Shown here in pieces: positions 2,050-51,670 of a stretch of DNA of 64,000 bases; within the stretch, counting starts at the first letter, position 1; every line of letters begins with the position of its first letter. The DNA is taken from assembly GCA_963813815.1 (NCBI GenBank), contig CAWFAD010000012.1, positions 64,001 to 128,000 of the forward strand, in the 5' to 3' direction. The notes under the pieces were generated by a model. The model saw only the letters and a list, made by a program, of their open reading frames with translations, did no database searches and was not told the DNA's origin. Both the position numbers and the translations under genes were made by a program. This DNA comes from an uncultured bacterium (lineage in GTDB: Bacteria > Krumholzibacteriota > Krumholzibacteriia > Krumholzibacteriales > Krumholzibacteriaceae).

Positions 2050-2076
2050 CGATTCGCGGACCCTTCGCGGCGGAGC

Positions 2077-2622: not shown

Positions 2623-2629
2623 GTTCGTC

Positions 2630-3355: not shown

Positions 3356-3399
3356 GTCGGTTCCTTTGCCGGGGGCGGCGCGTCCCCGCGCCGCCATCG

Positions 3400-5746: not shown

Positions 5747-5795
5747 GGCTCGCTCTTTCCTGAGGTCGTCCTCTCTGCATCGACTCCCGCGCGCG

Positions 5796-19521: not shown

Positions 19522-19558
19522 TGAAAACGGCAGCCCATTCACTGGGCTGCCGTTTTCA
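19522..19558. terminator. Bidirectional terminator hairpin between convergent genes
   Basis: 16-bp stem tgaaaacggcagccca/tgggctgccgttttca with a 5-nt loop; it overlaps the kinase stop codon. Confidence 0.75.
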
Positions 19559-21914: not shown

Positions 21915-21950
21915 TTCGCTTGTCCCGCGGCAGAGTGATCGATCGCCCTT

Positions 21951-24377: not shown

Positions 24378-24388
24378 TCCAAGCGCCT

Positions 24389-27262: not shown

Positions 27263-27334
27263 GCGATAAACCCGAAATGAAAGCCGCTTCACATCGAAAA
27301 AAGCGCTGCCGCCGAAATCGGCCCCCGAGCTCCC

Positions 27335-32482: not shown

Positions 32483-32701
32483 ATGCATTCGATCAAGTTG
32501 CGCACGGAATGGTGCAAGGCGTGCAAGATCTGCATCCAGATCTGCCCGCGCCAGGTCTACGTACAGGGGAAGGACCTCAACGCAAAAGGATACAAGGTCA
32601 CGAAGGTCGAGAAGCTCGAGGAGTGCACGGGATGCAAGCTCTGCGAGCTCATGTGCCCCGATCTCGTGATCACCGTCGAAGATGCCGAAAAAAACGGATA
32701 A
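32483..32701 (+). CDS. korD: 2x4Fe-4S ferredoxin / oxidoreductase delta subunit (operon 2)
   Basis: WCKACKICIQICP and CTGCKLCELMCPDLVI motifs. Confidence 0.88.
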   Translation: MHSIKLRTEWCKACKICIQICPRQVYVQGKDLNAKGYKVTKVEKLEECTGCKLCELMCPDLVITVEDAEKNG

Positions 32702-33815: not shown

Positions 33816-34570
33816 GCTCGCATCTCTACCGGTATCTGCGCGAAGAGGTCTTTCCGACGCCGTTCTGCCCCGGGTGCGGGCACGGCATTCTGCTCGGCGC
33901 CGTGACGCGCGCCATCGACGAGCTCGGGCTCGACATGAAGAGAATAGTGTTCGTCTCGGGCATCGGGTGCGCGGCATGGATCCCCTCTCCCCATTTCAAG
34001 GCGGACACGCTCCACACCCTCCACGGACGGGCGGTCGCCTTCGCGAACGGGCTCAAGCGCTCCCGCCCCGATCTCAAGGTCATCGTGATCTCCGGCGACG
34101 GGGATCTCGCCGCGATCGGCGGAAATCATCTGATTCACGCGGCGCGCCGGAACGTTCCGCTCACCGTCATCTGCGCCAACAACAGCATCTACGGAATGAC
34201 CGGCGGGCAGCAGTCTCCGACCACGCCGTACGGCGCCTTCAGCGAGACGACCCCCAAGGGAAATCCCGAGAAACCGTTCGATCTGTGCCGTCTCATGAAG
34301 GCCTGCGATGCGCCGTTCGTGGCCCGTCAGACGGTGTATCACGTACGGCCGCTCATCAAGATCATCAAGAAGGCGCTCACGACGGAGGGATTCGCGTTCG
34401 TCGACGTCGTGTCCCCGTGCCCGACGCAGTTCGGGCGCAAGAACAAGCTCGCGGGCGGCTACGAGATGCTCATGGATCTCAAGGAGCGCGCGATTCAATA
34501 CGAGAAGGCGAAGGCGCTTCCCAAAGAGGAGCTTCAACAGAGGATCGTAACCGGTGAATTCAACGATTGA
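33812..34570 (+). CDS. korB: 2-oxoacid:ferredoxin oxidoreductase beta subunit (operon 2)
   Basis: FCPGCGHG, SGIGC, HTLHGRA, GDGD...IGGNH and YGMTGGQ motifs; GTGA overlap with the alpha gene. Confidence 0.9.
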   Translation: MSSHLYRYLREEVFPTPFCPGCGHGILLGAVTRAIDELGLDMKRIVFVSGIGCAAWIPSPHFKADTLHTLHGRAVAFANGLKRSRPDLKVIVISGDGDLAAIGGNHLIHAARRNVPLTVICANNSIYGMTGGQQSPTTPYGAFSETTPKGNPEKPFDLCRLMKACDAPFVARQTVYHVRPLIKIIKKALTTEGFAFVDVVSPCPTQFGRKNKLAGGYEMLMDLKERAIQYEKAKALPKEELQQRIVTGEFND

Positions 34571-35111
34571 AATCAAGCTGACCGGCAAGGGCGGCCAGGG
34601 AGTCGTCTCCGCCGGCGAGATTCTCGCGTACGCGGCCGTTCTCGACGGCAAGGAAGCGAGCGCGGTGGCGGCCTACGGCTCCGAGGCCCGCGGCGGCGCC
34701 GTGAGCTCGGACGTCGTCATCGGCGATACCGAGGTCCCCGCCCCCTTCGTCATCAAACCGACGTACGTGCTGGCGATGTCGAAGGAAGGATACGCCGCGG
34801 CAGCCAAAATCCTCGCCGCCGATACGAAGGTCATCTACGACGCGACGACCATCAAGGACGCCCCGCGCGACGCGAACCACTTCCCCGTTCCCGCCGCCGA
34901 AATCGCCGCGAAGGTCGGCAACCCCGTCACGATCAACATGGTGCTCCTCGGCGCCTTCGCGGCGATCACCGCCGTGGTGAAGCGCGAAAGCATCGAAACG
35001 GTCGTGAAGGAGAAAATGAAGCCCGAAGCGGCCGCGCTCAACGTCAAGGCGCTCGCGGAGGGGTATGAAACGGGAAAGGGGCTTCTCGAGAAGCCCCCCG
35101 CCTCGAATTGA
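34554..35111 (+). CDS. korC: 2-oxoacid:ferredoxin oxidoreductase gamma subunit (operon 2)
   Basis: GKGGQGVVSAG, YGSEARGG and NMVLLGA motifs. Confidence 0.88.
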   Translation: MNSTIEIKLTGKGGQGVVSAGEILAYAAVLDGKEASAVAAYGSEARGGAVSSDVVIGDTEVPAPFVIKPTYVLAMSKEGYAAAAKILAADTKVIYDATTIKDAPRDANHFPVPAAEIAAKVGNPVTINMVLLGAFAAITAVVKRESIETVVKEKMKPEAAALNVKALAEGYETGKGLLEKPPASN

Positions 35112-38261: not shown

Positions 38262-39161
38262 ATGAGAATGCACCGTGCGCTGGCGCTCCTCGCGGCCGCC
38301 GGCGCGCTCGCGGCGCTCGCCCCCTCGAGCGGAAGCGCGGACCCCACCTATGAGAGCAATCGATGCGATCGCGCCATCACGATCGACGGAGAGGCGACCG
38401 AGTGGGCGGGCCGGGAAGCGCGCTACGACGAGGAGGACGGCTACAAGCTCGGCTTCTTCAACGACGAGGAATACCTCTACGTGTACTTCGCCACTTGGAA
38501 TCTCTCGACGCAGCAGCGCGTGCTCACGAGCGGCCTCACCGTCTGGCTCGACGGCGGCGGCAAGAAGAAGAAAACCTTCGGAATCAACTATCCGCGCGGC
38601 CGCGACCGGGGTCCCGGGAGCGGATTCCCGGCGGCCGACGGCGCCGCTCCCGGCGAAATACCTCGCGAGGCGCGCGGCGAGGCGCCGCGCTCGATGCAAC
38701 GCCCCGGAGCGAATCCGGATCCGGCGAAGCTCGCGGCCCTTCTCAACGAAACGCAGGCCGAGGCGCTGCTCAAGAGCCCGGCCGGCGATTCGGTCCTGCT
38801 CCTCTCTCCTGCCGACAGCTCCGCCGCGGGGCTTCGGGCGATGCTCCGGGCGAGAAGCAGGCTCCTCGTCATAGAGCTTCGCGTGCCCCTCGATCCGGGC
38901 GCGGCTTCGCCCTACGCGCTTCATGCGGTTCCGGGACGAACCATCAGCGTCGGATTCGAAACGGGCACGATGGAGAGACCGAAATTGACGCGCCCGCAGG
39001 GCATGCCGGAGGACGATCAAACGGGCGGAGGAATGCCTCCCGGCGGAGGCGGCAATGCCCCCGGGGGCGGCATGTTTCCCGGCGGAGGCGCGGGGGGTCC
39101 CGGGGGAATGGGCGCGCCCGAAGGGCTCAAGCTCTGGGTCAAGGTCAAGCTCGCTCCGTAG
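38262..39161 (+). CDS. Secreted hypothetical protein (CBM9/DOMON-like start IDGxxxEW; Gly/Pro/Met-rich C-terminal tract)
   Basis: AGGAGG RBS, signal peptide, ITIDGEATEW...NDEEYLYV...GLTVWLD and a GGMPPGGGG tract. Confidence 0.7.
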   Translation: MRMHRALALLAAAGALAALAPSSGSADPTYESNRCDRAITIDGEATEWAGREARYDEEDGYKLGFFNDEEYLYVYFATWNLSTQQRVLTSGLTVWLDGGGKKKKTFGINYPRGRDRGPGSGFPAADGAAPGEIPREARGEAPRSMQRPGANPDPAKLAALLNETQAEALLKSPAGDSVLLLSPADSSAAGLRAMLRARSRLLVIELRVPLDPGAASPYALHAVPGRTISVGFETGTMERPKLTRPQGMPEDDQTGGGMPPGGGGNAPGGGMFPGGGAGGPGGMGAPEGLKLWVKVKLAP

Positions 39162-39633
39162 AGCTCCCGCCCACGAGCTTCTCGGGCACCTGCACGGCGA
39201 CGAGCTCGCCGCGCGCACAGGGCTTGCCGCCGGCCCTCAGCGTGGCCGTGACGACGATCTTTCGCCCCTTGATCTCCTTGACCTTCGCGCGCACCTCGAG
39301 GAGCGTGTCGATCGGAGTGGGCTGAAGGTAGTCCACGTGAAGCGACGCGGTGACGAATCGCCGCGGGGGATCGGACCCCATCTCCCGCCCCTCGGCCCGA
39401 TACGCCGCGGCCGACGCCGTTCCGGTGCAGTGGCAATCGATGAGGGAAGCGATGAGCCCCCCGTACACGTAACCGGGGATCGACGTGTGGTACGGCTTCG
39501 GCTCGAAGACGCACACCGCCTCGTCCCCGTCCCAGTAGCTCTTGATGTGGAGGCCGTGCTCGTTCAGCCGTCCGCAGCCGTAACACTGCGCGAAATTGTC
39601 CGGATAATATTCCTGGAACGCCTTCGGCGTCAT
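39145..39633 (-). CDS. PaaI/hotdog-fold thioesterase
   Basis: CYGCG...NEHGL, YGGLIASLIDCH and VTASLHVDYLQPTP motifs. Confidence 0.85.
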   Translation of the reverse strand: MTPKAFQEYYPDNFAQCYGCGRLNEHGLHIKSYWDGDEAVCVFEPKPYHTSIPGYVYGGLIASLIDCHCTGTASAAAYRAEGREMGSDPPRRFVTASLHVDYLQPTPIDTLLEVRAKVKEIKGRKIVVTATLRAGGKPCARGELVAVQVPEKLVGGSSTERA

Positions 39634-40797
39634 TTCAAGGCCTCCTTGCGTCCCGCGTAGAAGTCGCGGTAAAAGGATATCGAGCTCCAGACCTCTCGCG
39701 GGATAAGGGGCTCGCCGCGCAGAATGAAGTTCGCCATGTTGCGGCCGACGCCGGGGCCGAGCATGAAACCCTGCCCGCACATCCCGACCGCGAGATAGAG
39801 CCCATCCACTTCGCGCACCTTGTCGAGGATGATGATACCGTCGGGAGTCATGGGATAGAGGCCGCGCCAGGTGCGCCGGATGAGCATGTTCCGCAGCCGG
39901 GGTATGAGCTCGATCATGCGCCGCGCGAGCACGGGCATGAACTCGGACGTGTTCTCCTTGTTCGTGCCCCAGATTGGAACGATCGGCGTATAGCAGAAGA
40001 TGACCTGTCCCCGGTCGTTCTGGCCGAAGTAGAAGTTCTTGGTCTTGCCCTCGGGCCCCGGCCGGATATCGACGATGAGCGGGTCGAAGAACCGCTCCAT
40101 CGGGGCCGAAATGCCCGCCTCGTGGCAGTCGGGCGTGACGGGGATCTCGACGCCCGCCATCGCGCCGACCTCCTTCGCGAACGATCCCGCCGCGTTCACG
40201 ACGATGTTCGAGTGGTAGATCCCCGCGCGCGTTTTGACCGAGGCGATCCGGCCCCGCTTCACCGCGAGCCCCGTCACGGGCTCGTTGAAGCGGTACTCGC
40301 ATCCGCCGCCCGCGCTCACCTTCCAGAGAGCGGCCGCGTATTTCAGCGGCGATACCTGCCCGTCCCCGGGGAGAACGTGCCGCCGCGAAGATCCTTCTCG
40401 TTGATGCCCGGAACGAGCTTCTTGATGTCGTCGGGGCCGAGCCAGTCGATGTCGAGGCCGTGGCTCTTCTGGATGGAAAGGAGGCCCTTGAGGATGTTCT
40501 CTTCCGCCTCGCGGTACACCGGAAAACAGTATCCCCCCGGCACCCATCCGAGATCGATCCCCGTGCGCTCCTGGAAGGTCGAGTAGAACTCGAGGCTCTG
40601 GAGACAGAGCGTTATCTTCGCCGGATCGGAATGGGTCGCCCGGACGCCGCCGATCGCCGCCTTGTTCTCCCCCTGTCCCACCGACGCGTTCGACTCGAGA
40701 ACGAGAACCCGGAGCCGCTCGAGGGTGAGAAAGTGCGCGATGGCGAGCCCCACGCTCCCGCGCCGATGACGATGGCGTCGTAGCTCGCGCCTTTCAT
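39630..40797 (-). CDS. DAO-family FAD oxidoreductase (sarcosine oxidase beta / L-proline dehydrogenase beta-like); frameshifted as assembled
   Basis: YDAIVIGAG(S)VGL, AAIGGVRA, VVNAAG, RTWRGLYPMTPDG and GQGFMLGPGVG motifs; frame changes near 40762 and 40345. Confidence 0.85.
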
Positions 40798-42941
40798 GCG
40801 CCATCCCCTTCCCCATCGGAGCCGGCGAACACCCCGAGCGGCACCTCCGCCGTGAACGGCCTGTTCGTCGGCAGCGTGATCTCGCCCGCCGGAATCCCGG
40901 CCTCGCGGTAGAGCCTCAGTATGAGATCGGTGCACGTCTTTCCGCCGCACGCTCCCATGCCGGTGCGGATCGTGGCCTTGAGGATGTTCATGTCCCGCAC
41001 GCCGTCGCGAATCTCTTTTCGCACCTCGCCCGCCGTGATGCGCTCGCAGCGGCAGATGATCGTGTCGTCCGTCAGGGGCTCTCCGGCGGCCGGCGCCTTC
41101 GCGCCCTTCTCCGGCTCGAGCACGGTGAATCCCGCGACCGCGAAGGCGTCTCCCCGCGGCACCTCGATCGAAACGATCTTCCGCTTGGCGTCGATGTTGG
41201 AGGTGCGGAACGCGACGACGCGTCCCCGGCCGACCGCTCCACCTTCCATGTCGACCGTCTTGACTTCCTTCCCCTCCGCGAGATCCGTCGTTTCCAGCTC
41301 GTAGGGCAGCATGAGGAGCGACGTCTTCCGGGCGGGGTCGTACTCCGGCATGACGAGACTGATCGCGAGCCCCGGACAAACCGCGACGCAGTTCGTGCAG
41401 CCGATGCAATCCCCGCCGAACACGGGATTGCACATGATCGAGTCGCCGCTCAGGATGATGCTGTTTCGGGGGCAGCTGTCGGCGCACGGATTGCAGGGGA
41501 TCTCCTGAACGCAACGGATGATGGGGTAGACCCGCTTTTCGAATCTCGCGGGTTCGTCCGGGATCGTCCGTCCGGGCTTGCTGCGGAGCACCTTCGCCGT
41601 CGACTCCCACTCGTCCGGAACGTCGATGTCGCGGGCGAGCGACCTCGCTATCCGGCGCCCCGTGATTTTTCCGCTGAATATGGCGGCGGACGCCTCGGCG
41701 ATCTCCTCCGCGTCGCCGGCCTTGTAGCACTCGATTCCGTACCCGGCGAGCTTCTCGTAGAGCTCGTTCACCGGCGAGAGGCCGACGGCGATGAGGAGCG
41801 TGTCGACGTCGTACGACCGTTCCGTTCCGGCGATCGGCTTCCAGTCCCGGTCGAGGCCAGCGATCGTGATCCGCTCGAGCGCTTCCTTGCCTTCCGCCCG
41901 GAGCACCGTGTGGGAGGTGTGAACCGGCACGCCGAGACGGCGGAGCTTGTCGAGGTGCACCTTGTATCCCCCGCATTGCGGAAGGGCCTCGACGAGCCCC
42001 ACGACGGTGATCCCCGCCTGGATCGCGTGGTAGCCGGTGATGAGACCGACGTTCCCGCCGCCGACGACGAAAAGGCGCCTCGTCGGAAGAACGAGATCGC
42101 GGTTCAGGATCGTCTGGAAGGCGCCCGCGCCGTAGACTCCCGGGAGATCGCAGCCGGGAAAGGCGAGGCTCTTTTCGCGCGCCCCGCACGCCACGAGAAC
42201 GACGCGCGGTCTCGCGAGATAATACCGGCGGCCCTGTTGGAGACCGATCTGCTTGTCCCAGAAGGCGCCGACGGCGGTCGTGTCGAGCATCACCGATACG
42301 CTCGGGTACCGATCGAGCCTTCCGGTCAGGATATGCGCGATCTCGATGCCCCGCGTGCCCGCGTAGCAATCGTCGCGCGAGCCGAAAAAGGTGTGCGTCT
42401 GCAGGGTGAGCTTTCCGCCGAGCTCGTTCTTGTCGTCCACGACGAGCGTTTTGATCCCGAGCTCCCCAAGCTCGGCCGCCGCGTTGATGCCCGCGGGGCC
42501 GCCTCCGATGACGAGAACCTCGGTCTCGATCGTTTCGATCTCCCTGAACGCGGGGAGCGCATCGGCCGCGGGGAGAGCGGGCGAGCCGTCGCAGCTTTCG
42601 ACGCGCATCCCCTCGCTCACGACTTGCATGCATCCCTTCACGGGGACGCCCCCGACGAGGACCATGCACTGGCTGCACTGGCCGTTCGCGCAGAAGATGC
42701 CCTGCGGCCCTCCGTCGCGTTCGTGGTGGCCGAAGACCTGAATGCCGTTCGCGAAGAGCGCCGTCGTGACGACCTCTCCCTCGTACGCCTTCATCGGCGC
42801 GCCGTTCCAGGTGAAGGACACGCTCGCCCGTTCGCGTATCGGCAGGATCGGGTGGCTCCTGACGCGGAATTCCCCCATCGCGCGAAGCGTCGCGCTCGAA
42901 ACCGGCGTGGAGCGGGAGGTTTTCTTCATCTCGATCGACAC
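40794..42941 (-). CDS. Sarcosine oxidase alpha / proline dehydrogenase alpha-like multidomain flavoprotein (2Fe-2S + FAD + 2x4Fe-4S + BFD-like 2Fe-2S)
   Basis: FCANGQCSQC, VIGGGPAG, GGKLTLQTH, VVGGGNVG, EIPCNPCADSCP, CIGCTNCVAVCPG and ICRCER...GMGACGGKTC motifs. Confidence 0.85.
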   Translation of the reverse strand: MSIEMKKTSRSTPVSSATLRAMGEFRVRSHPILPIRERASVSFTWNGAPMKAYEGEVVTTALFANGIQVFGHHERDGGPQGIFCANGQCSQCMVLVGGVPVKGCMQVVSEGMRVESCDGSPALPAADALPAFREIETIETEVLVIGGGPAGINAAAELGELGIKTLVVDDKNELGGKLTLQTHTFFGSRDDCYAGTRGIEIAHILTGRLDRYPSVSVMLDTTAVGAFWDKQIGLQQGRRYYLARPRVVLVACGAREKSLAFPGCDLPGVYGAGAFQTILNRDLVLPTRRLFVVGGGNVGLITGYHAIQAGITVVGLVEALPQCGGYKVHLDKLRRLGVPVHTSHTVLRAEGKEALERITIAGLDRDWKPIAGTERSYDVDTLLIAVGLSPVNELYEKLAGYGIECYKAGDAEEIAEASAAIFSGKITGRRIARSLARDIDVPDEWESTAKVLRSKPGRTIPDEPARFEKRVYPIIRCVQEIPCNPCADSCPRNSIILSGDSIMCNPVFGGDCIGCTNCVAVCPGLAISLVMPEYDPARKTSLLMLPYELETTDLAEGKEVKTVDMEGGAVGRGRVVAFRTSNIDAKRKIVSIEVPRGDAFAVAGFTVLEPEKGAKAPAAGEPLTDDTIICRCERITAGEVRKEIRDGVRDMNILKATIRTGMGACGGKTCTDLILRLYREAGIPAGEITLPTNRPFTAEVPLGVFAGSDGEGDGA

Positions 42942-44090
42942 CTATTTCGCGAGCCTCGCCGCGGCGAGGGTCAGGAGATCCTTCACGTCGACGGGCGCCT
43001 TGCGCCACGACGTGCCGCCGAGCACTTCGGCGTAGAGGAGCGTGCATTTCGGACAGGCGGTGACGAGCGTGCCGGCGCCGGCGCGGTGCGCCTCGACGAG
43101 GCGCTCGTCGACGGCCGTCCTCGTGTGCGGCCCGTGATCGACGAGCGATCCGGCCCCGCAGCACGGGGCCTTCGCGCCCCGCCGCTCGAGCTCGACGAGC
43201 CCCGCCGAAGAAAGGGAGCTCAGCAGCTTTCTCGGAGCGTCCTCGACCCCGAGGGATCGGCACAGATAGCAGGGATCGTGAAACGCGAATTTCTCCTCGC
43301 CGGCGCGAAAGACGAGCCCGCCGAGACGCTCGGCGATGTACTCGGTGACGTGCCGGATCTCGATCGGCGCTCCGCCGAGCTCTCCGGCGTAATTGAATTT
43401 CAGCGTGAAGGCGCATTCGGGACACACGGTGAGAACGGTCTTCGCCTTCGCCTTCTTCAGCAGGGCCGCGTTGTGGCGCGCGAGAGCGGCGAACGCCTCG
43501 CGATCGCCCGTGTCGTACAGATCCCTGCCGCAGCAGCGCTCGTCCTCGAGAATCGCCGGGGCGACGCCGAGGCCGTTGAGGAGTCTCACCGCGGCCCTCG
43601 CCATGCCGCCGAAGGCTCCCGGCTCGACACCAATGCCGAGGGAATCGAAGAGCGCGAGGCATCCGGCGAACAGCACGACGGCGCTCTCCGGATCGAGCTC
43701 GAGCGACTTGTCGACCCACGAGTGGCGGGCCTTCGCCGCTCCCTGCCGGACCCCGGTCTCGAGCCTTTTCTGATACTGGCGGACGAGGCCACCGTGAATC
43801 GGCCGGCAATCGGATCTGCCGACGCGGAGCTCCCGGACGAAATCGGCGAATTCGACCTTGAAGGGACACGCCTCGGTGCACGCCCGGCACGTGACGCACG
43901 TCCAAATCAGCCGGTGCTCGCGAGCGGCCGCCTCCCCGCCCCGGAGAAAGAGTTGAGCGAGATCGCGGGGATGGTGCTTGCCGTAGTGCCGGTAAACGGG
44001 ACAGACCTCTGCGCACTCGTTCGCGCAGCGCGTGCAATCCTCGATGCGGAAGCTTTCCTTGATTTCCTGTTCGTTCATTTCGATTTCCAT
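42942..44090 (-). CDS. HdrD/GlpC-like Fe-S protein with two CCG domains
   Basis: CTRC...CAEVCP, CVTCRACTEACP, ERCCG, VCPEC, FHDPCYL, PCCGAG and TACPKC motifs. Confidence 0.85.
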   Translation of the reverse strand: MEIEMNEQEIKESFRIEDCTRCANECAEVCPVYRHYGKHHPRDLAQLFLRGGEAAAREHRLIWTCVTCRACTEACPFKVEFADFVRELRVGRSDCRPIHGGLVRQYQKRLETGVRQGAAKARHSWVDKSLELDPESAVVLFAGCLALFDSLGIGVEPGAFGGMARAAVRLLNGLGVAPAILEDERCCGRDLYDTGDREAFAALARHNAALLKKAKAKTVLTVCPECAFTLKFNYAGELGGAPIEIRHVTEYIAERLGGLVFRAGEEKFAFHDPCYLCRSLGVEDAPRKLLSSLSSAGLVELERRGAKAPCCGAGSLVDHGPHTRTAVDERLVEAHRAGAGTLVTACPKCTLLYAEVLGGTSWRKAPVDVKDLLTLAAARLAK

Positions 44091-46336
44091 GCCCACCGGT
44101 CGACGGCGAGCGCGAACTCGCCGGGACTCGTCGAAATTTCCGTCACGACGTTCGGGTTGCAGCCGAACACGCGGAGCAGATCCCGCGCCCGCTCCGCGAC
44201 GAGACGCGAGCGCGAGCGCCCGAATCCGTAATGGCAGACCTCCTCACGGCAGCCGCAGACGAGAATCCTCTGGCTGCCGCGAAGCGCCGCCTCGACGATG
44301 AGGGACGGCGCGATGCGTCCCGTGCACATCGTCTCGATCACGAGCACGCCGCCCGGCAGCTCGAGCCGCGCGGGGCGCGCCCAGCGGCAGACGAAGAGGA
44401 CCTTCGTTCTCGTCGAAACCGAGGCGAGCGCTCGCATGATCGCCCCGTGCTCGAAATTGTCTTGATCGGCGGCGCCCGTCGGGCACGCGCCGGCGCAGAT
44501 TCCGCAACCCTTGCAGGCGAGCTCGTCGACGCGGGCGACGAGACGGTTCCCCGGACGCGATTCGACCTGGATCGCCCGGTACCCGCACACCTCGGCGCAG
44601 CGTCCGCAGCCGATGCAGAGCCCCTCGTCGACCCGCGCGATCGTGCGGACGACGGCGGCCTCCGTCTCTTCCTCCCCCGCCCGCACGCGGACCGTCCGCG
44701 GCAGGGCAGACCAGAACTCGCGCCCCGCATGCGCGCCGAGGGTGAAATCCCCTCCGAACTTCAGGAGCAGGTCCTTCTTCTCGCAGATATCCACGCAAAC
44801 CGAGCACTCCGCGCAGGGGCCGCAGCGGAGGCACCGCCTCGCCTCGCGGCGCGCCTCCCGATCGGAGAGCCCCTTCTCGACCTCCCGGAAATCGTTCCGC
44901 CTCGCCCGCGCCCCCTCGACCGGCATGGTCGCGCGTCGCGGGTGATCTTCCGGAACGATCTCGAGCGTGTACTCCTCGTGCGCTATCGAATCGTCGATCG
45001 TGAGATCGAGCGGAGAGGAAAGAGTCTCGCCGCTCAGATGGTGATGGATGCCGAGGGCCGCCCGCTGCCCCGACGCGATCGCCTCCACGACGGTTCTCGG
45101 ACCGGTGACGAGGTCGCCCGCGGCGAACACGCCACCCGCGGCGGCGGCGGATGTCGCCGGATCGATCGCAAGCGTTCCGGCGGGGGTCGTTTCGAGACCG
45201 AGAGAGGCGGCGAACCCCCTGACGTCGATCCCCCGCGTATGCGCGTCGACGAAGACGTCCGCCTCGACGGCGAACTCGCCGTCGGGACGCTCGCTCAGCT
45301 CGCGCCGGCCCGTTGCGTCCTTCGATCCCTCGACGAGCGGCGAACAGACGACCGCCTCGAGCGTCCGGCCTCTCCTCGCGAGGCGCAGCGGCCGGACGAG
45401 AAACTTGAAAACGAGGCCTTCCCCTTCGGCGAGCTCGATATCGCCGCGGTGAAGCGCGGCGAGCTCGCGGCTCGAGCCCACGAGATAGGTGACGCGCCGC
45501 GCTCCGAGCCGGAGCGCCGTACGGGCGCAGTCGAGCGCCATCATGCCCTCGCCGGCGACGACGACGCTCTTTCCCTCGACGATCGCCCGCGCCTTCGCGC
45601 GCTCGCCCTCCGCCGGAGCGGCCGCCGCCTCGAGGAGCTCGATCGCGTGCAGCGCCCCTCCTCTCCCCGCCGGTCCCCATTTCCAAGAGGGTTTCCACGC
45701 GCCGTTCGCGAGGAGCAGCACCCGGTATCCCCGCCGCTTGAGCCGGCTCCACGTGACGTCCCGGCCGAACTGCACGCCCGTTTCGAGCTCGATCCCCATC
45801 TCGAGAATCATGCTCGATTCCCTCCGGACGACCTCCGCGGGAAGTCTGAATCCCGGTATGAGATTCATCATGCCGCCCGGAATCTCCCTCGCTTCGAAGA
45901 TCGTGACGGCGTACCCGAGGCTCGCGAGCGCCGCCGCCGCGGAAAGCCCGGCCGGACCGGCGCCGATGACGGCGACTTTCTCCGGGCGGCTCCTCGCGGC
46001 CCTCGCGGACGGACGGATTCCGCGCTTCATCTCGAGATCGGACACGAAGCGTTTCAGCGCGCACACGGCCACCGCCTCGTCGTGCCTGCCCCGCGTGCAC
46101 GCCGCCTCGCACGGCCGCGGGCAGACGCGCCCGCAGACCCCGGGGAACGGATTCCGCTCGCGGATGAGCTCGAGAGCTTCGGCGTAGCGCCCGTCGGCGA
46201 TGAGCGACACGTAGCCGCGCGCGTTGATGCGCGTCGGGCACGCCAGCGTGCAGGGGGAGGTCTCGAGGGGAACGAGCTCCCACGTTCTCTCGCCCTGCGG
46301 CATGCGAACCCGTATCGTTTCCGCCGCGCGTTTCAT
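44075..46336 (-). CDS. GltD/NfnB-like flavoprotein fused to 2x4Fe-4S and an MvhD/FlpD-like 2Fe-2S domain (HdrA/HdrL-like architecture)
   Basis: SPCTLACP, CGRVCPRPCEAAC, VIGAGPAGL, FAAGDLVTGP, EARRCLRCG, CIGCGRCAEVC and CKGCGICAGACP; C-terminal FVCRW...MCTGRI...CGC...CHYG. Confidence 0.85.
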   Translation of the reverse strand: MKRAAETIRVRMPQGERTWELVPLETSPCTLACPTRINARGYVSLIADGRYAEALELIRERNPFPGVCGRVCPRPCEAACTRGRHDEAVAVCALKRFVSDLEMKRGIRPSARAARSRPEKVAVIGAGPAGLSAAAALASLGYAVTIFEAREIPGGMMNLIPGFRLPAEVVRRESSMILEMGIELETGVQFGRDVTWSRLKRRGYRVLLLANGAWKPSWKWGPAGRGGALHAIELLEAAAAPAEGERAKARAIVEGKSVVVAGEGMMALDCARTALRLGARRVTYLVGSSRELAALHRGDIELAEGEGLVFKFLVRPLRLARRGRTLEAVVCSPLVEGSKDATGRRELSERPDGEFAVEADVFVDAHTRGIDVRGFAASLGLETTPAGTLAIDPATSAAAAGGVFAAGDLVTGPRTVVEAIASGQRAALGIHHHLSGETLSSPLDLTIDDSIAHEEYTLEIVPEDHPRRATMPVEGARARRNDFREVEKGLSDREARREARRCLRCGPCAECSVCVDICEKKDLLLKFGGDFTLGAHAGREFWSALPRTVRVRAGEEETEAAVVRTIARVDEGLCIGCGRCAEVCGYRAIQVESRPGNRLVARVDELACKGCGICAGACPTGAADQDNFEHGAIMRALASVSTRTKVLFVCRWARPARLELPGGVLVIETMCTGRIAPSLIVEAALRGSQRILVCGCREEVCHYGFGRSRSRLVAERARDLLRVFGCNPNVVTEISTSPGEFALAVDRWAWKSK

Positions 46337-47158
46337 GCCGTGCGCGCCCCCTTCTTCCGCCCTCCGCGCCCCGTAGTCCGGCCCGCGGGCTTTCCCGCCG
46401 CCGGCTTGCGCGGCGATCGCCCGCCCCGCCGCGCGAGGGCGACCGCCACGAGGGGATGCGTCCCCGCCTCGCCGCGCTGCTTCTGGTCGATCTCGCAGCG
46501 CGCGCATTCGTAGTTCAGCGAGCAGACCGCGTCCGGCAAAAAGCCCATGAGGGTATAGCGGCAGAGGTGCTCCCCCCCCCTGCTTGCGGAGCTCGAGGAC
46601 GCGCGTGTATTCCATCTGAACGGCCCCCGTGGGGCATACGAAGGTGCACGCCCCGCAGGCGATGCACTTCGAATGATCGATGCCGTAGGGGGAGTCGACT
46701 TTCCTGTCGATCCCCCGTTCGGCGAAGCCTATCGCGTTCGCCCCGACGATCTCGGCGCACGTGCGGACGCACAGCCCGCAGAGGATGCAGTTGTCGTCGA
46801 GGGGGACAAAACGCGATTTGACGACGCCGTATCGCGCGGCGAGCTTCTTCACGTACGGAGCGTTCGGCGAGCGCGCGAGCAGCAGCTCGAGCAGAAACTT
46901 TCTCAGAGCGCGTATCCTCTCCGTCTCCGAACGCACCTCGAGCCCGTCGGCGACCGGATAGAGGCACGAGGTCACGATCCGCCAGCGTTTCTTGCCCCTC
47001 TCTCTGACCTCCACGACGCAGAGCCGGCAGGCTCCATAGGGTTCGAGAGCGTCGTGAGCGCAGACGGCGGGAATGTCGACGCCCGCGGCGCGCGCCGCGT
47101 CGAGCACGCTCTCCCCTTCCCGCGCCGGCCTCGCCCTGCCGTTCAGGATAAACCTCAT
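46333..47158 (-). CDS. NuoG/HydA N-terminal-like Fe-S subunit (BfuA-like) with a Cys-rich C-terminal extension; frameshift in a poly-C run near 46575
   Basis: IPAVC...GACRLCVVEV...TSC, CILCGLCVRTC and CIACGACTFVCP; it continues in another frame as HLCRYTLMGFLPDAVCSLNYECARCEIDQ. Confidence 0.8.
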
Positions 47159-47694
47159 GTATAGCTCTCCAGCGCCTTGTCGACCGTGAGGTGGTCGAGC
47201 TTGCCGTGTATGTTTCCGTCGATCGTCATGACCGGAGCCTGACCGCAGCATCCGAGACACCGGACCGTCTCGAACGAAAAACGTCCGTCGGCGGTCGTCC
47301 CGCCCTCCGCGATTCCGAGCGTCCGCTCGATCGCATCCTTTACCCGCTCCCCGCCCCGCACGTGGCAGGCCGTCCCCATGCAGAGGCATACCTCGTGGCG
47401 GCCGCGGGGCTCGAGCCGGAAGGCCTTGTAGAAGGTCGCGATCGCGTAGAGGCGCGTCATCGGCACGTCGAGCTCCCGCGCGATGTACCGCAGATCCGCC
47501 TCGCCGAGGTAGCGGCGCTTCTCCTGAAGATCCTGGAGAATGGCGATGATCTGGACGCTCGCGCGTCCGTGCCGCTCGAGGACCTCCTCGATGGCCGATG
47601 CCTCTGGCGCCGCCGGAGACGGCACGGCCGTCGAGGGGCCGCGCCGCGCGGCGAGCGCGCGTTCGATGGCTCGTATGCTCTCGCTTCCGCTCAT
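47155..47694 (-). CDS. NuoE/HydC-like 2Fe-2S subunit (BfuC-like), copy 2
   Basis: ATFYKAF, CMGTACHVRG and RCLGCCGQAP motifs. Confidence 0.9.
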   Translation of the reverse strand: MSGSESIRAIERALAARRGPSTAVPSPAAPEASAIEEVLERHGRASVQIIAILQDLQEKRRYLGEADLRYIARELDVPMTRLYAIATFYKAFRLEPRGRHEVCLCMGTACHVRGGERVKDAIERTLGIAEGGTTADGRFSFETVRCLGCCGQAPVMTIDGNIHGKLDHLTVDKALESYT

Positions 47695-47741
47695 GGCTTG
47701 TGTCCCGGGCGGCCCCGGAGGGGGGCCTCCTTCGCGCGGCG

Positions 47742-49619
47742 TCACCTCTCTATCGCGTCGAATTTGCAGACGTCCCAGCAGGCGCCGCACTTGATGCAAC
47801 GCGCCTCGTCGATCACGTGGACCTCTTTCGGCTTTCCGCTGATACAGCCCGACGGGCACGGCTTGAAGCAGGCGTGGCACCCCGTGCACCGCCCGGTCTC
47901 GATCCGGTACCGCAGGAGCGGCTTGCACACTCCGGCGGGGCACCGTTTGTCGCGGATGTGAGCCTCGATCTCGTCCCTGAAATAGCGGATCACGGTCAGC
48001 ACCGGATTCGGGGCGGAGCCGCCGAGCGCGCAGAGCGAGGTCGCGGCCACGTTCCCCGCGATCTCCTCGAGGAGCGCCACGTCACCCCGCTTCCCCTTCC
48101 CCCCGGCTATCCGGTTCAATATCTCGAGAAGCGCGCGGAGCCCCTCGCGGCACGGAAGGCACTTCCCGCACGATTCATCCTTCAGAAAGTCTATGAAATA
48201 CCGGGCGACGTCCACCATGCAGGTGTTCTCGTCCATGACGATCATGCCGCCGGATCCCATCATCGATCCCGCCTCCGCGAGGCGGTCGAAATCGACCGGC
48301 AGGTCGAGCATCGACTCGGGGAGCACCCCTCCCGACGGCCCGCCCGTCTGCACCGCCTTGAACTTCTTTCCGTTCGGCACGCCCCCGCCGATGTCGAAGA
48401 TAATTTCGCGGAGCGTCGTTCCCATCGGCACCTCGACGAGACCGGTGTTCACGACCTTGCCCACGAGCGAGAATATCTTGGTCCCCTTGCTCCCGCCCCA
48501 GGGGCTCTCGCTCACGTCGCCGACCCCTATCGAGGTGTACCAGTCGACGCCCCCGAGAACGATCTTCGGCACGTTGGCCCACGTCTCGACGTTGTTGAGC
48601 ACGGTCGGCATCTCAAAGAGCCCCTTCTCGACCGTGTGAACGTACTTCGCGCGCGGCTCCCCGGGTTTCCCCTCGAGGGACGCCATGAGCGCGGTCGATT
48701 CGCCGCAGACGAACGCCCCACCCCCGCGCGATATGCCGATATCGAAGGAGAAATCGCTCCCGAGGATGCGCCGGCCGAGGAGACCGCATTCGCGTGCCTG
48801 CGCGAGCGCGATCGTGAGCGACTCGAGGGCCAGCGGATATTCATGGCGAACGTAGATGTATCCCTCGCTCGCCCCGACGGCGTACGCGCCGATGATCATC
48901 CCCTCGATGACGCTGTGCGGATTTCCCTCGCAGACGCTGCGGTCCATGAACGCGCCCGGATCGCCCTCGTCGGCGTTGCAGATGACGTATTTCCGCTCGC
49001 CCCGCGCCCGCCGCGCGGTGCTCCACTTGACGCCGGCCGGAAACCCCCCACCTCCCCGCCCGCGGAGCCCCGAGCGCGTTATCGTCTCGATGACCTTCCG
49101 CGGGTTCGCTCCCTCGAGCGCGCGCCGGAGCGCCTGATACCCGTCGAGCGCGATGTAGTCCCGAATGTCCGTCGGATCGATCCTCGAGTTGTCGCCGAGC
49201 ACGAGGCGAAGCTGCTTGCGGTAGTAAGGCACCTCGTCCTCGATCTCGACGCGCCGTTTGCTTCGCGGGTCGAGATAGAGGAGGCGCTCGACGACCTCGC
49301 CGCGCGCGAGCGTCTTCTCGACGATCTCGGGCACGTCGGAGGGCCGCACCTGCGTATAGAGGATCCGCCGGGGATGAATGACGACGAGGGCGCCCTTCTC
49401 GCAGAAGCCGTGGCAACCGGTGGCCTTGACCTCGACGTGGCGCAGCCGCGCTTTGGCGACCTCGCGTCTCATGGCTTCGTGGACGTGGACCGAGTCGCAG
49501 GCGCGGCAGCCCGTGTCCGTGCAGATGCCGACGGTGACGGCCCCCGCTGGGCGCTGCTCGATGATCTGCTTCTTGAACCTATCGAGGCTGCCGTATGAAC
49601 GAAGCTTCGAGAGTTTCAG
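47742..49619 (-). CDS. NuoF/HydB-like NAD(H)/FMN subunit (BfuB-like), copy 2; probable CTG start
   Basis: CTDTGC...GCHGFC, SGLRGRGGGGF, CNADEGDPGAFMDR, GAFVCGES, GGPSGG, ESCGKCLPCREG, HIRDKRCPAGVC and 2x4Fe-4S; GGAGGT lies 5 nt before the CTG at 49619. Confidence 0.9.
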   Translation of the reverse strand: MKLSKLRSYGSLDRFKKQIIEQRPAGAVTVGICTDTGCRACDSVHVHEAMRREVAKARLRHVEVKATGCHGFCEKGALVVIHPRRILYTQVRPSDVPEIVEKTLARGEVVERLLYLDPRSKRRVEIEDEVPYYRKQLRLVLGDNSRIDPTDIRDYIALDGYQALRRALEGANPRKVIETITRSGLRGRGGGGFPAGVKWSTARRARGERKYVICNADEGDPGAFMDRSVCEGNPHSVIEGMIIGAYAVGASEGYIYVRHEYPLALESLTIALAQARECGLLGRRILGSDFSFDIGISRGGGAFVCGESTALMASLEGKPGEPRAKYVHTVEKGLFEMPTVLNNVETWANVPKIVLGGVDWYTSIGVGDVSESPWGGSKGTKIFSLVGKVVNTGLVEVPMGTTLREIIFDIGGGVPNGKKFKAVQTGGPSGGVLPESMLDLPVDFDRLAEAGSMMGSGGMIVMDENTCMVDVARYFIDFLKDESCGKCLPCREGLRALLEILNRIAGGKGKRGDVALLEEIAGNVAATSLCALGGSAPNPVLTVIRYFRDEIEAHIRDKRCPAGVCKPLLRYRIETGRCTGCHACFKPCPSGCISGKPKEVHVIDEARCIKCGACWDVCKFDAIER

Positions 49620-49690
49620 AGACGACCTCCGGCCGATATGAGCAATAAAGATAAACTGAATAAATAAGAAATCCCTGACGGTGTCAAGGG

Positions 49691-51670
49691 CTAGGGAGCG
49701 ATGGTGAGAAGCACCTGATCCTTCTCGACCGAGGTGCCGGGGGCGACCTTGAGCGCCTTGACGGTGCCGTTCATGCCGGACGTGAGGTTGTTCTGCATCT
49801 TCATGGCCTCGAGGATGACGAGAACGTCCCCCTCCTTGACCTTGTCGCCGACCTTCACCTCGAACTGCACCACCATTCCCGGCATAGGGGCTATGACCGA
49901 ATATTCGCCGTTCGAGGACGCCGGGGCGTCGTTCTTCGCGCCCTTCGGCTTCGCCTCGTCCTTCTGCGGTTTCGGTTCCTCTTTCTTCTCGTTTTCCTTC
50001 TTCTCCGTCTCGGCCGGAGTCGACGGCTCCTTGCGAACGAGAGGCTGCGTCTCGCCGACCGCGACGACGCGCGGCTTGCCGCCTATCTCCTCGACGTCGA
50101 CGCTGTATCGCTCCCCGCTGACCGAGACGCTGAAGGTGCGGATGGCCGAGCCGCCCGATCCGCTCGCCGCCGGGGCCTTCTCGACAAGCTGGCCCTTGAG
50201 CGCCTTCTCGATCGTCTCGTTCTCGCGTTTGACGTCCTCGATCGTTTTCGCTTTCGTCTCCGGGGGCGCCTGCTCCTTGCCGTACTTCCAGCGCAGGAAA
50301 CGCAGCCCCGTCGTCGGATACATCGCGTAGACGAGGATGTCCCGCTCGTTTTTCGCGATATCTTTCGTCGCCTCGCGCGCCTTGTCCATCTCGGGCTCGA
50401 GGGTATCGGCCGCGCGGCACGTGATGGGCTTCTCGCCGCGCGGATAGCCATGGAGCACGATCCGCTGGATGCGCGGATCGATGGGGGCCGGCGGTTTGCC
50501 GTAGAGGCCGTAGACGTAGTCCTTCACCTGGCTCGAGATCATCTTGTACCGGCCGAAAAGGACGTTCTGGACGGCCTGCGTCCCGACGATCTGGCTCGTC
50601 GGGGTCACGAGCGGCGGGTACCCGAGCTCCTTGCGCGTGCGCGGCAGCTCCTCGTACACCTCGCCTATGCGGTCGAGGGCGTCCGCCTCCTTGAGCTGGC
50701 TCATGAGGTTCGTGAGCATGCCGCCGGGTATCTGGTGATCGAGCACCCCGGTATCGATGATCGACATCTTCGTCGAATCGAGGAACTGCCGGTACTTGGG
50801 AGCGATCGACTCGAGGTACTGCGCCACCTCGTAGAGCTTCTCGAGATCGAGCCCGGGGTCGCGCATCTTTCCCTTGAGAGCCGCGACGATCGGCTCCACG
50901 GCCGGCTCGCTCGTGCGGAGACCGAACGGCGACACGGCGCAATCGACAATGTCGACCCCCGCCTCGATCGCCTTGAGATAGGTCATCGACGCCATGCCGC
51001 TCGTGTAATGGCAGTGAAGCTGGAGCGGGATCTTCACGACCCGTTTGAGGGCCTGAATGAGCTCGTAGGCGTCATACGGGTTGAGAAGGCCGGCCATGTC
51101 CTTGATGCAGATCGAATCCGCCCCCATCTCCTTGAGTGCCTTGGCCTTCTCGACGTAATAGCGGAGATTGTATACCTTGCCGCCGATCTTCGACCCTGTG
51201 AGCGAGAAGGAGATGGTGCCCTGAATGTGCTTTTTCGCCTTCTTGATCGCCTTGAACGAGGCCACGAAGTTGCGCTCGTCGTTCAGCGCGTCGAACACGC
51301 GGAAGATGTCGACGCCGGCCTCGGCCGATTCGGCCACGAACGCATCGACCACGTCGTCGGCGTAGTTGCGGTAACCGACGAGATTCTGGCCTCGAAGCAG
51401 CATCTGAAGCGGCGTTTTCTTCACGCGCTTCTTGAGCTCGACGAGCCGGTCCCATGGATCCTCGTTGAGAAAGCGCGTCGCGACGTCGAACGTCGCCCCG
51501 CCCCATACCTCGAGGGCATGAAATCCGATCCGGTCCAGCCGCTCGGCGATGGGAAGCATGTCCTCCGTCCGCATCCTCGTCGCGAGCGTGGACTGGTGCC
51601 CGTCCCTGAGCGTGGTATCGGTGATCTTTACGGATGTGAAGGCCTTGAGAATTCTGGCCCGATTCGGCAT
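49691..51670 (-). CDS. Pyruvate carboxylase subunit B / oxaloacetate decarboxylase alpha (carboxyltransferase + biotinyl domain)
   Basis: DTTLRDGHQS, EVWGGATFD, LLRGQNLVGY, IKDMAG, LHCHYT, PPLVTPTSQIVG and the EAMKM biotin site. Confidence 0.92.
   Translation of the reverse strand: MPNRARILKAFTSVKITDTTLRDGHQSTLATRMRTEDMLPIAERLDRIGFHALEVWGGATFDVATRFLNEDPWDRLVELKKRVKKTPLQMLLRGQNLVGYRNYADDVVDAFVAESAEAGVDIFRVFDALNDERNFVASFKAIKKAKKHIQGTISFSLTGSKIGGKVYNLRYYVEKAKALKEMGADSICIKDMAGLLNPYDAYELIQALKRVVKIPLQLHCHYTSGMASMTYLKAIEAGVDIVDCAVSPFGLRTSEPAVEPIVAALKGKMRDPGLDLEKLYEVAQYLESIAPKYRQFLDSTKMSIIDTGVLDHQIPGGMLTNLMSQLKEADALDRIGEVYEELPRTRKELGYPPLVTPTSQIVGTQAVQNVLFGRYKMISSQVKDYVYGLYGKPPAPIDPRIQRIVLHGYPRGEKPITCRAADTLEPEMDKAREATKDIAKNERDILVYAMYPTTGLRFLRWKYGKEQAPPETKAKTIEDVKRENETIEKALKGQLVEKAPAASGSGGSAIRTFSVSVSGERYSVDVEEIGGKPRVVAVGETQPLVRKEPSTPAETEKKENEKKEEPKPQKDEAKPKGAKNDAPASSNGEYSVIAPMPGMVVQFEVKVGDKVKEGDVLVILEAMKMQNNLTSGMNGTVKALKVAPGTSVEKDQVLLTIAP

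What the first reader, a model, noticed from the sequence alone, without database searches (positions are those of the whole stretch)
39145..49619. Eight-gene coupled operon: Bfu-type NuoF/E/G module + GltD-4Fe4S-MvhD fusion + CCG protein + proline/sarcosine-dehydrogenase-like pair + thioesterase; candidate undescribed bifurcating amino-acid oxidation complex
Seen: after the first gene, every junction overlaps or abuts (47158/47155, 46336/46333, 44090/44075, 42942/42941, 40797/40794, 39633/39630), which implies translational coupling. The NuoF-like subunit has GAFM, GAFVCGE, GGPSG, the H...CPAGVC site and two extra 4Fe-4S. No hydrogenase or formate dehydrogenase catalytic subunit is present. 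Established: DAO-beta plus alpha pairs oxidise proline/sarcosine-type amines, and HdrA/MvhD/CCG modules relay electrons to disulfides or other acceptors. Inference: a soluble multi-flavin complex links a relatively high-potential amine oxidation (or imine reduction) to NAD(H), ferredoxin and a thiol/disulfide. I do not recognise this combination as characterised.
Basis: partly seen in the sequence, partly recalled or inferred. Interest (0 to 1): 0.78.

Follow-up and report, generated by a model that had tools for sequence, protein, structure and literature searches.

The report
Proline dehydrogenase wired to bifurcating module
Seven tightly packed genes of an uncultured bacterium join an NADH/ferredoxin electron-mixing module through an iron-sulfur wire to a likely proline dehydrogenase, which would let anaerobes push the uphill first step of proline breakdown without the usual respiratory enzyme; no such complex has been tested.

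Summary
The operon is real; three frameshifts in G-runs are assembly errors. It encodes type-2 BfuBCA, a GltD-ferredoxin-MvhD fusion whose NADPH motif is lost (0 of 55 close, 62 of 64 distant homologues keep it), an intact CCG protein and a fused PdhAFX plus PdhB, closest to archaeal L-proline dehydrogenase. There is no HdrA flavin domain; the thioesterase is a genus-level passenger. In the order, the five-gene block stands before pdh in 21 genomes and is missing in 25. Elsewhere BfuA-MvhD is fused to PdhAFX. Block genomes carry NAD(P)-linked P5C dehydrogenase (18 of 21, against 2 of 25); block-less genomes instead carry a split aldehyde oxidoreductase fused to a kindred Bfu (23 of 25, against 0 of 21), though these reflect few independent losses. 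Best model (0.45, inferred): Bfu merges NADH and ferredoxin electrons to pull uphill proline oxidation to NAD+; the reverse direction is the main rival. Five paper searches found no such enzyme. This scan noted related Pdh-MvhD layouts on other DNA before.

The parts
49660..49687 (-). Promoter-like element (TTGAC ... TATT(A/T)AT) between oadA and bfuB
   Evidence: TTGAC/TTGCA-TTGAC plus an AT-rich box recurs upstream of bfuB in 11 of 11 block loci; not listed by the sigma-70 scan; function untested
47742..49619 (-). bfuB (NuoF/HydB-type, FMN, NAD(H), B1, B3, B4, B5 clusters, Zn/B2 site); CTG start
   Evidence: Pfam; best PDB match WorB 9mqx_B E 1.3e-225; motifs; CTG and GGAGG in 11 of 11 loci
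47155..47694 (-). bfuC (NuoE/HydC-type, C1 [2Fe-2S])
   Evidence: PF01257 E 6.9e-47
46333..47158 (-). bfuA, short type-2 form ([2Fe-2S] + 2x[4Fe-4S], no A3 motif, C-terminal four-Cys motif); assembly frameshift near 46572
   Evidence: Pfam; intact orthologue's best PDB match WorA 9mqx_A E 8.9e-42 over residues 6-181; frameshift absent in other contigs
44075..46336 (-). GltD/NfnL-type FAD domain with lost NADPH motif, fused to 2x[4Fe-4S] (HdrA C-terminal type) and MvhD
   Evidence: Pfam; PDB matches NfnA/StnC, HdrA C-terminus, MvhD; motif counts
42942..44090 (-). CCG-domain protein (HdrD/BamD/GlpC-like): 2x[4Fe-4S] plus two intact CCG motif sets, C-terminal conserved Trp motif
   Evidence: PF02754 twice; alignments
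40794..42941 (-). pdhAFX: fused [2Fe-2S]-FAD/NAD(H)-2x[4Fe-4S]-BFD [2Fe-2S] subunit of an L-proline-dehydrogenase-type complex
   Evidence: Pfam; best PDB match 1y56_A by sequence and by fold
39630..40797 (-). pdhB: DAO-family catalytic subunit; two assembly frameshifts near 40756 and 40363
   Evidence: PF01266; intact orthologue's best PDB match 1y56_B E 4.7e-45, next 6e-20; single-copy in 50 of 52 genomes
39145..39633 (-). Hot-dog thioesterase; passenger limited to this genus
   Evidence: PF03061; present in 6 of 7 same-genus loci, no others
49691..51670 (-). oadA/pycB-like biotin carboxyltransferase; fixed upstream neighbour, abuts pdhAFX where the block is missing (context, not a subunit)
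   Evidence: NCBIfam; synteny

Best explanation
The seven conserved genes likely encode one soluble complex that is predicted to oxidise L-proline to pyrroline-5-carboxylate (P5C) with NAD+, an uphill reaction that it would pay for with electrons from reduced ferredoxin. Shown: the domain content, the lost NADPH motif, co-conservation, fusions in relatives and the gene complements. Inferred steps: (1) BfuBCA merges NADH and reduced-ferredoxin electrons to about -390 mV, as BamGHI is proposed to do; (2) they pass through the 2x[4Fe-4S] arm and MvhD, with the NADPH-less GltD domain and the CCG protein as relay and scaffold, to PdhAFX; (3) PdhB oxidises proline and the FAD/NAD site of PdhA combines both electron streams to reduce NAD+; (4) P5C dehydrogenase removes P5C and keeps the reaction near equilibrium. 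Net: 2 Pro + Fd(2e-) + 3 NAD+ -> 2 P5C + Fd + 3 NADH, half the ferredoxin cost of direct ferredoxin drive. The ancestor of the block likely used NADPH through an intact GltD domain (about -380 mV); Bfu replaced that input and the NADPH site decayed. Block-less relatives would get ferredoxin from a Bfu-fused aldehyde oxidoreductase that oxidises the P5C-derived semialdehyde.
For: Link: block directly upstream of pdhAFX in 20 of 21 block genomes (the 21st contig ends) and its CCG orthologue was found nowhere else. Outside the order 13 of 18 same-clade Pdh loci have MvhD/CCG/GltD/Bfu genes directly upstream, 0 of 58 loci of the sister clade do. Single-chain BfuA-ferredoxin-MvhD-CCG-relic-PdhAFX fusions: L155, L185, P0241; an intact GltD domain inserted inside PdhAFX: P0247; flavodoxin fused to PdhAFX: P0246. 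Substrate: closest solved relatives are both subunits of L-proline dehydrogenase 1y56; neighbours of relatives include P5C dehydrogenase (2 loci), ornithine aminotransferase (1), ProC family (4), a HypD-like fragment (1). Own genome has P5C dehydrogenase, HypD and RnfC, and no PutA-type domain was found. Direction: P5C dehydrogenase in 18 of 21 block genomes and 2 of 25 block-less ones; split AOR-Bfu in 0 of 21 and 23 of 25. Input swap: NADPH motif in 0 of 55 close and 62 of 64 distant homologues. Energetics: Pro + NAD+ about +19 to +30 kJ; with -390 mV co-donor +9 to -8 kJ depending on P5C/Pro. Precedent: Bfu -> ferredoxin arm -> MvhD wiring in BCRII (10.64898/2026.04.10.717634).
Against: No activity, structure or expression data. 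No bifurcating/confurcating site is identified in PdhA; the model needs one. The reaction is near equilibrium, so the same wiring can run backwards; ProC and ProA were found in 0 of 52 genomes while HypD is in 39 of 52, which leaves room for a reductive role. The gene-complement contrasts rest on few events: block-less genomes form one supported clade plus G021 and G022 (G019 was not in the tree). G021 and G019 lack the block yet keep P5C dehydrogenase, and AOR-Bfu was not found in G019 (61% complete) or G042 (80%). Three same-clade loci with 2.8-5.5 kb upstream have no module (L154, L200, L221). The fusions may be one event (L155, L185 group with unfused L165). That the AOR acts on glutamate semialdehyde rests only on neighbourhood (8 loci). 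The P5C/proline potential (-123 mV) is recalled, not found in the papers searched.
Confidence: 0.45

Rival explanations
1. Same complex, opposite physiological direction: an electron-bifurcating P5C reductase. NADH reduces P5C (made from hydroxyproline by HypD or from ornithine) to proline, and the freed energy sends low-potential electrons through MvhD to Bfu, giving reduced ferredoxin for Rnf.
For: HypD in 39 of 52 genomes, ProC in 0 of 52, PdhB in 50 of 52; RnfC present; reaction near equilibrium at low P5C and favourable at P5C/Pro = 1.
Against: P5C dehydrogenase tracks the block, which fits removal of P5C; characterised relatives are dehydrogenases (PMC4364671, PMC4575208 passages); no proline-consuming reductase was found, though that search had no positive control.
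Confidence: 0.18
2. BCRII-like wiring with the CCG protein as a high-potential exit: proline electrons, or part of the Bfu electrons, leave through the non-cubane clusters to ETF, a quinone or a disulfide, with the GltD-type FAD as branching flavin.
For: All CCG and cubane cysteines are conserved in the order; BamD passes electrons to ETF; the genome has two EtfA genes and a MenA-like prenyltransferase; a homologous GltD/MvhD/CCG set stands with a split HdrA in family f7.
Against: No HdrA flavin domain here; CCG cysteines are lost in L155, L165, L184, L185 and P0241 while the domain stays next to or fused to PdhAFX; MqnA and isochorismate synthase were not found in the 91% complete genome.
Confidence: 0.13
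3. Two separate enzymes share a transcript: a stand-alone Pdh and a Bfu-GltD-MvhD-CCG oxidoreductase with another, unknown partner.
For: 25 genomes have Pdh without the block; 58 sister-clade loci have none; few PdhAFX positions differ between block and block-less genomes.
Against: The block's CCG orthologue was found only beside pdhAFX among 201 genomes of the phylum; the block has no catalytic subunit of its own and no NADPH motif; fusions join these domains to PdhAFX.
Confidence: 0.12
4. One complex, but the amine is not L-proline (sarcosine, a D-amino acid, hydroxyproline, pipecolate or an opine).
For: The DAO/PdhB family includes opine, D-hydroxyproline and cyanide-forming enzymes (PMC4575208 passage); identity to 1y56_B is modest; the cyclodeaminase-family neighbour scores best as alanine dehydrogenase, below cut-off.
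Against: Sarcosine oxidase models score far below cut-off; 1y56_B outscores other solved relatives by 25 orders of magnitude; P5C-related neighbours and gene complements.
Confidence: 0.09

Closest known systems
Class II benzoyl-CoA reductase Bam[(BC)2DEFGHI]2 of Geobacter metallireducens (10.64898/2026.04.10.717634; abstract, results and part of the conclusion read)
   Same: Bfu module (BamGHI) joined through a C-terminal ferredoxin arm and an MvhD adaptor (BamF) to a flavin subunit, with an HdrD-like CCG subunit (BamD); Bfu proposed as confurcating input.
   Different: No HdrA-type bifurcating FAD and no tungsten BamBC here; a GltD-type domain without NADPH motif carries the arm; the catalytic unit is a DAO-family amine dehydrogenase; the proposed use is to oxidise a high-potential substrate, not reduce a low-potential one.
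Type-2 Bfu enzymes, WorABCSL of Acetomicrobium mobile (PMC9304861 parts 2-6 of 9 read; PMC12318220 passages; PDB 9mqx)
   Same: BfuB and BfuA are closest to WorB and WorA; short BfuA without A3; extra subunits feed the core.
   Different: Third module is MvhD/CCG/Pdh; amine dehydrogenases are not among the third reactions listed in Table 1; proline electrons cannot reduce NAD+ and ferredoxin through Bfu alone.
Archaeal dye-linked L-proline dehydrogenases: alpha-beta-gamma-delta PdhAFXB of Thermococcus profundus and alpha4beta4 PDH1 of Pyrococcus horikoshii (PDB 1y56; named in passages of PMC4364671; original papers not seen)
   Same: Same gene order and domain set (pdhA, F, X, B); best solved relatives of both subunits.
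   Different: A, F and X are one chain; extra Bfu-GltD-MvhD-CCG input; the natural acceptor of the archaeal enzymes is, as I recall, unknown.
NfnABC/StnABC transhydrogenase (PMC11829005 passages; PDB 9bov, 8oh5)
   Same: Bfu core plus a GltD/NfnL-type FAD domain with two [4Fe-4S].
   Different: There the domain lies inside BfuA and binds NADPH; here it is a separate chain, has lost the motif and ends in ferredoxin-MvhD.
Lactate dehydrogenase-Etf of Acetobacterium woodii (recalled, no call)
   Same: Works-like analogue: reduced ferredoxin pays for oxidation of a high-potential substrate with NAD+.
   Different: Unrelated proteins; Etf-type flavin; single-stage confurcation.

Membership tests
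BfuABC family | BfuB with FMN-binding, SLBB, NADH-4Fe-4S and C-terminal 2x[4Fe-4S] domains | tested here: met
   PF01512, PF10589, Fer4 above cut-off; PF10531 E 8.6e-6, just under cut-off. InterPro-to-Pfam mapping recalled.
BfuABC family | Conserved His and Cys of the B2/Zn site; N-terminal B5 cysteines | tested here: met
   Aligned to 7t2r_B and across orthologues; the variable C476 position is Ala, Val or Thr, as in Zn-site members
BfuABC family | BfuC [2Fe-2S] and BfuA with [2Fe-2S] + [4Fe-4S] domains; type 2 lacks A3 and A5 | tested here: met
BfuABC family | Coupled NAD(H) and ferredoxin turnover with a third substrate | not testable with these tools
   Needs enzyme assay
Class II benzoyl-CoA reductase (BamB-I) | HdrA-type subunit with bifurcating FAD (BamE) | tested here: not met
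   HdrA models match only the C-terminal ferredoxin/MvhD part
Class II benzoyl-CoA reductase (BamB-I) | Tungstopterin catalytic subunit BamB | tested here: not met
   No AOR domain in the operon
Class II benzoyl-CoA reductase (BamB-I) | MvhD adaptor and HdrD-like CCG subunit beside a Bfu module | tested here: met
   supports 'works like', not membership
NfnABC (type-1 Bfu) | NADPH-binding NfnL-like domain within BfuA | tested here: not met
   Separate chain; second dinucleotide motif and YRR lost in 55 of 55 close homologues (54 cover the first motif). Role of the motif recalled.
PdhAFXB-type L-proline dehydrogenase | [2Fe-2S]-FAD/NAD subunit, ferredoxin, BFD [2Fe-2S] and DAO-family beta subunit in order A-F-X-B | tested here: met
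   the T. profundus sequences themselves were not available for comparison
PdhAFXB-type L-proline dehydrogenase | L-proline -> P5C activity | not testable with these tools
   Indirect support only
Heterotetrameric sarcosine oxidase | SoxA with folate-binding half and SoxB above NCBIfam cut-off | tested here: not met
   TIGR01372 141 of 1164 bits; TIGR01373 69 of 529 bits on the C-terminal piece
Heterodisulfide reductase HdrABC/HdrD | Two complete non-cubane (CCG) motif sets | tested here: met
   but the HdrA partner is not in the operon, so not filed here

The most novel reading that the evidence does not exclude
PdhAFX-B enzymes are a widespread, unrecognised class of confurcating proline dehydrogenases with a new kind of flavin branching site, giving anaerobes a quinone-free route from proline to glutamate. 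This operon is a two-stage version in which Bfu halves the ferredoxin cost, and the order moves one Bfu lineage between the first step (this block) and the second (a split tungsten aldehyde oxidoreductase), the two solutions excluding each other.
Probability: 0.3. Interest if true: 0.9.

Novelty: new variant of a known kind. Interest (0 to 1): 0.74.

Why it matters
It would give the Bfu family its first amino-acid (high-potential amine) partner, a second case of stacked confurcation beside class II benzoyl-CoA reductase, and a testable answer to what the natural electron partners of 'dye-linked' proline dehydrogenases are. Proline and hydroxyproline are abundant in detrital protein, and the Pdh pair is near-universal in this order of uncultured sediment bacteria (50 of 52 genomes) and present in many other anaerobes and two anaerobic protists. 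Natural variants (NADPH-fed, Bfu-fed, fused, stand-alone) form a ready comparison series.

Tried and rejected
Pseudogene reading of bfuA and pdhB: rejected. Thioesterase as subunit: rejected. NfnABC and Hdr membership: rejected. Bfu as direct acceptor of proline electrons: rejected on energetics. Scan of genome contigs with the GltD-MvhD alignment was swamped by ordinary GltD proteins (1 of 64 parts read), so the context of the distant GltD-Fd-MvhD family with intact NADPH motif is known only from G049/G054 and from Pdh-linked loci. AlphaFold model of PdhAFX was mediocre (pLDDT 68.9, pTM 0.51) and gave only fold identity; no branching-flavin residue could be assigned. No RNA holder listed. Proline/glycine reductase search had no positive control and shows nothing. 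Comparing PdhAFX of block and block-less genomes gave six fixed differences, none interpretable. Paper searches found no paper on such a complex or on the P5C potential; the one supplementary text file of PMC9304861 held had no hit, and its Supplementary Table 1 was not seen. Notebook entry 1 miscounts as 9 and 11 loci; the correct split is 8 with and 12 without the block.

Full report
1. Observation. The eight genes and the junctions are as described. Three G-run frameshifts break bfuA (near 46572) and pdhB (near 40756 and 40363). Contigs from other runs carry the compensating base at each place (46572 in 2 of 4 runs, 40756 in 3 of 4, 40363 in 1 of 4; each is a single low-depth contig per run), and orthologues are in one frame, so the genes are taken as intact. 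Close homologues are named Candidatus Krumholzibacteriota by their sources. A TTGAC-plus-AT-rich element, a GGAGG site and a CTG start precede bfuB in 11 of 11 block loci examined, which suggests a transcript of its own from bfuB on; this is inference.

2. Anatomy. BfuB has every domain and ligand set that PMC9304861 uses to define the family; BfuB and BfuA are closest to WorB and WorA, so this is a type-2 Bfu module. The 753-residue fusion is a GltD/NfnL-type FAD domain with its cluster motifs, then a 2x[4Fe-4S] domain most like the HdrA C-terminus, then MvhD with its cysteines. Its second dinucleotide motif is changed and the YRR motif is gone: among the 119 listed homologues other than the query, 0 of 55 close ones and 62 of 64 distant ones keep both. 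That these motifs bind NADPH is recalled; that NADPH binds beside this FAD in NfnA is from passages of PMC11829005. The CCG protein keeps two cubane and two CCG motif sets across the order. The 715-residue protein joins [2Fe-2S], FAD/NAD, 2x[4Fe-4S] and BFD domains, the order pdhA-pdhF-pdhX given for Thermococcus in PMC4364671 (passage); it and PdhB match both subunits of L-proline dehydrogenase 1y56 best. Its own second dinucleotide motif (GGGNVG ... VEA) is intact in all groups.

3. Co-conservation in the order. PdhB was found, single-copy, in 50 of 52 genomes. In 21 genomes (the window's included) block genes are present, and in 20 of them the CCG gene directly precedes pdhAFX; in 25 genomes oadA abuts pdhAFX; 6 are uninformative or were not examined. 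The CCG orthologue (49% identity or more) was found only in block genomes among 201 of the phylum. So the Pdh pair does not need the block, but the block was never seen without it. On the PdhAFX tree the block-less genomes form one supported clade plus G021 and G022, and outgroups carry related modules, so the block is more likely ancestral and lost a few times than inserted once.

4. Outside the order. Of the 80 best of 571 metagenome loci (ranked by likeness, not a random sample), 22 fall in the window's clade and 58 in a sister clade. Four of the 22 belong with the order. Of the other 18, 13 have MvhD, CCG, GltD-ferredoxin or Bfu genes directly upstream, 2 have under 350 bases upstream and 3 have none; one of the 13 (L159) was seen only by clustering. 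None of the 58 sister loci has such genes, 35 of them with at least 1.5 kb upstream. L155, L185 and P0241 are single chains BfuA-2x[4Fe-4S]-MvhD-CCG relic-PdhAFX; they may stem from one fusion. P0247 has an intact GltD domain inserted within PdhAFX, and P0246 a flavodoxin in front. The CCG relatives keep a C-terminal Trp motif even when all cysteines are lost, which points to a docking role. Thus three inputs recur: GltD with NADPH motif, Bfu, or, here, both with the NADPH motif dead.

5. Substrate and direction. Neighbours among the 80 loci: P5C dehydrogenase (2 loci), ornithine aminotransferase (1), ProC family (4), cyclodeaminase family (7, best model below cut-off), an AOR family (8), GntR regulators (13), Liv-type binding proteins (6) (one or two representatives of each typed). 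L158 holds a HypD-like fragment, GntR, P5C dehydrogenase, GltD-MvhD, CCG and Pdh in a row. The window's genome (91% complete) has P5C dehydrogenase, HypD, RnfC, two EtfA and a MenA-like gene; PutA-type domain, MqnA, isochorismate synthase and FeFe-hydrogenase were not found. Across the order P5C dehydrogenase is in 18 of 21 block genomes (one partial; the three misses are 62-84% complete) and 2 of 25 block-less ones. The AOR family that neighbours sister-clade Pdh is in 0 of 21 and 23 of 25; in the five genomes opened it is split and fused to a Bfu module. Kin are not independent: this is about three events, and G019 and G021 do not fit cleanly.

6. Mechanism. With potentials from Table 1 of PMC9304861 (NADH -280, NADPH -380, ferredoxin -500, aldehyde -560 mV) and a recalled -123 mV for P5C/proline, proline cannot reduce NAD+ alone (+13 to +30 kJ) nor feed Bfu (+34 to +52 kJ); with a co-donor at -380 to -390 mV the four-electron reaction is +11 to -8 kJ as P5C/proline falls from 1 to 0.001, and with ferredoxin -12 to -29 kJ. 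The reading that fits all three inputs is that PdhA combines proline electrons with lower-potential electrons to reduce NAD+. Where the semialdehyde is oxidised by a Bfu-fused AOR, ferredoxin is at hand and no block is needed; where it is oxidised by NAD(P)-linked P5C dehydrogenase, a module that supplies about -390 mV is kept: NADPH through GltD in the likely ancestor, NADH plus ferredoxin through Bfu here. The wiring Bfu -> ferredoxin arm -> MvhD is the one described for BCRII. Every step of this paragraph is inferred; no branching site in PdhA was identified, and the near-zero free energy leaves the reductive direction open, all the more as ProC and ProA were found in 0 of 52 genomes and HypD in 39. 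PMC6219649 (passages) says the fate of HypD-made P5C is unclear in most anaerobes.

7. Known systems and novelty. [quoted passage not shown] Searches found no paper on a Bfu-, MvhD- or confurcation-linked proline dehydrogenase; the library lacks most subscription papers, the original archaeal PDH papers were seen only as references, and Supplementary Table 1 of PMC9304861 and the supplements of the BCRII preprint were not seen and may list such clusters. Papers in searches 87 and 88 other than those cited were seen as listings only. Earlier notes of this scan describe related Pdh-MvhD/Bfu layouts and the split AOR on other DNA (one is marked as partly fallen, without detail); they are not counted as support. 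New here are the dead NADPH motif, the presence/absence series in one order, and its complementarity with P5C dehydrogenase and AOR-Bfu.

8. Verdict. Real, conserved, apparently undescribed seven-gene redox module; link to Pdh about 0.85, proline about 0.8, the full oxidative confurcation model 0.45. New variant of a known kind; interest 0.74. Physical binding between the subunits remains untested.

Noticed in passing
window about 2000-7903 (-): A second Bfu operon flanked by 2-oxoacid:ferredoxin oxidoreductase subunits (porA, porB, bfuC, bfuB, bfuA, porG): the Por-Bfu arrangement predicted, but not characterised, in PMC9304861.
   Followed up: partly
L230:4085-9279 (G040:C42); also L231-L234: Aldehyde oxidoreductase split into AOR_N-BfuC-BfuB and BfuA-AOR_C, followed by a ThiF/MoeB gene. 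Its BfuB shares an 8-residue insertion with the block's BfuB (12 of 12 and 5 of 5 rows; none of the other rows), though the tree leaves the two as unresolved neighbours. Excludes the block across the order. The scan noted the split layout before.
   Followed up: partly
P0254, P0259: One-chain PdhAFX-PdhB fusions in the anaerobic protists Carpediemonas membranifera and Chilomastix cuspidata, by the sources' names.
   Followed up: no
P0246; P0247/P0391: Flavodoxin fused in front of PdhAFX; a whole GltD domain with intact NADPH motif inserted inside PdhAFX.
   Followed up: partly
L051:5746-14530 (G049:C12): korDABG followed by GltD-ferredoxin (NADPH motif largely intact), MvhD, CCG protein and a split HdrA-MvhD: a candidate NADPH-linked Hdr complex and possible ancestral setting of the block.
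   Followed up: partly
window 49617-49619; L035, L038 and other block-less loci at the pdhA start: Non-ATG starts look conserved: CTG for bfuB in 11 of 11 loci; in some block-less loci pdhA seems to begin at ATA or another rare codon behind an AGGAG/GAGG site.
   Followed up: no
52 genomes of the order: HypD in 39, but ProA and ProC in none and ornithine aminotransferase over cut-off in 4: P5C metabolism without the textbook reductase.
   Followed up: partly
window 19539-27292 (-) and 32682-35111 (+): Three tandem Ser/Thr kinase genes, one with TPR repeats; a korABG-type oxidoreductase operon.
   Followed up: no
G000:C5 about 41500-45800: NiFe hydrogenase large-subunit match with an in-frame TGA near an HdrA gene, possibly a selenocysteine Mvh-Hdr cluster.
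   Followed up: no
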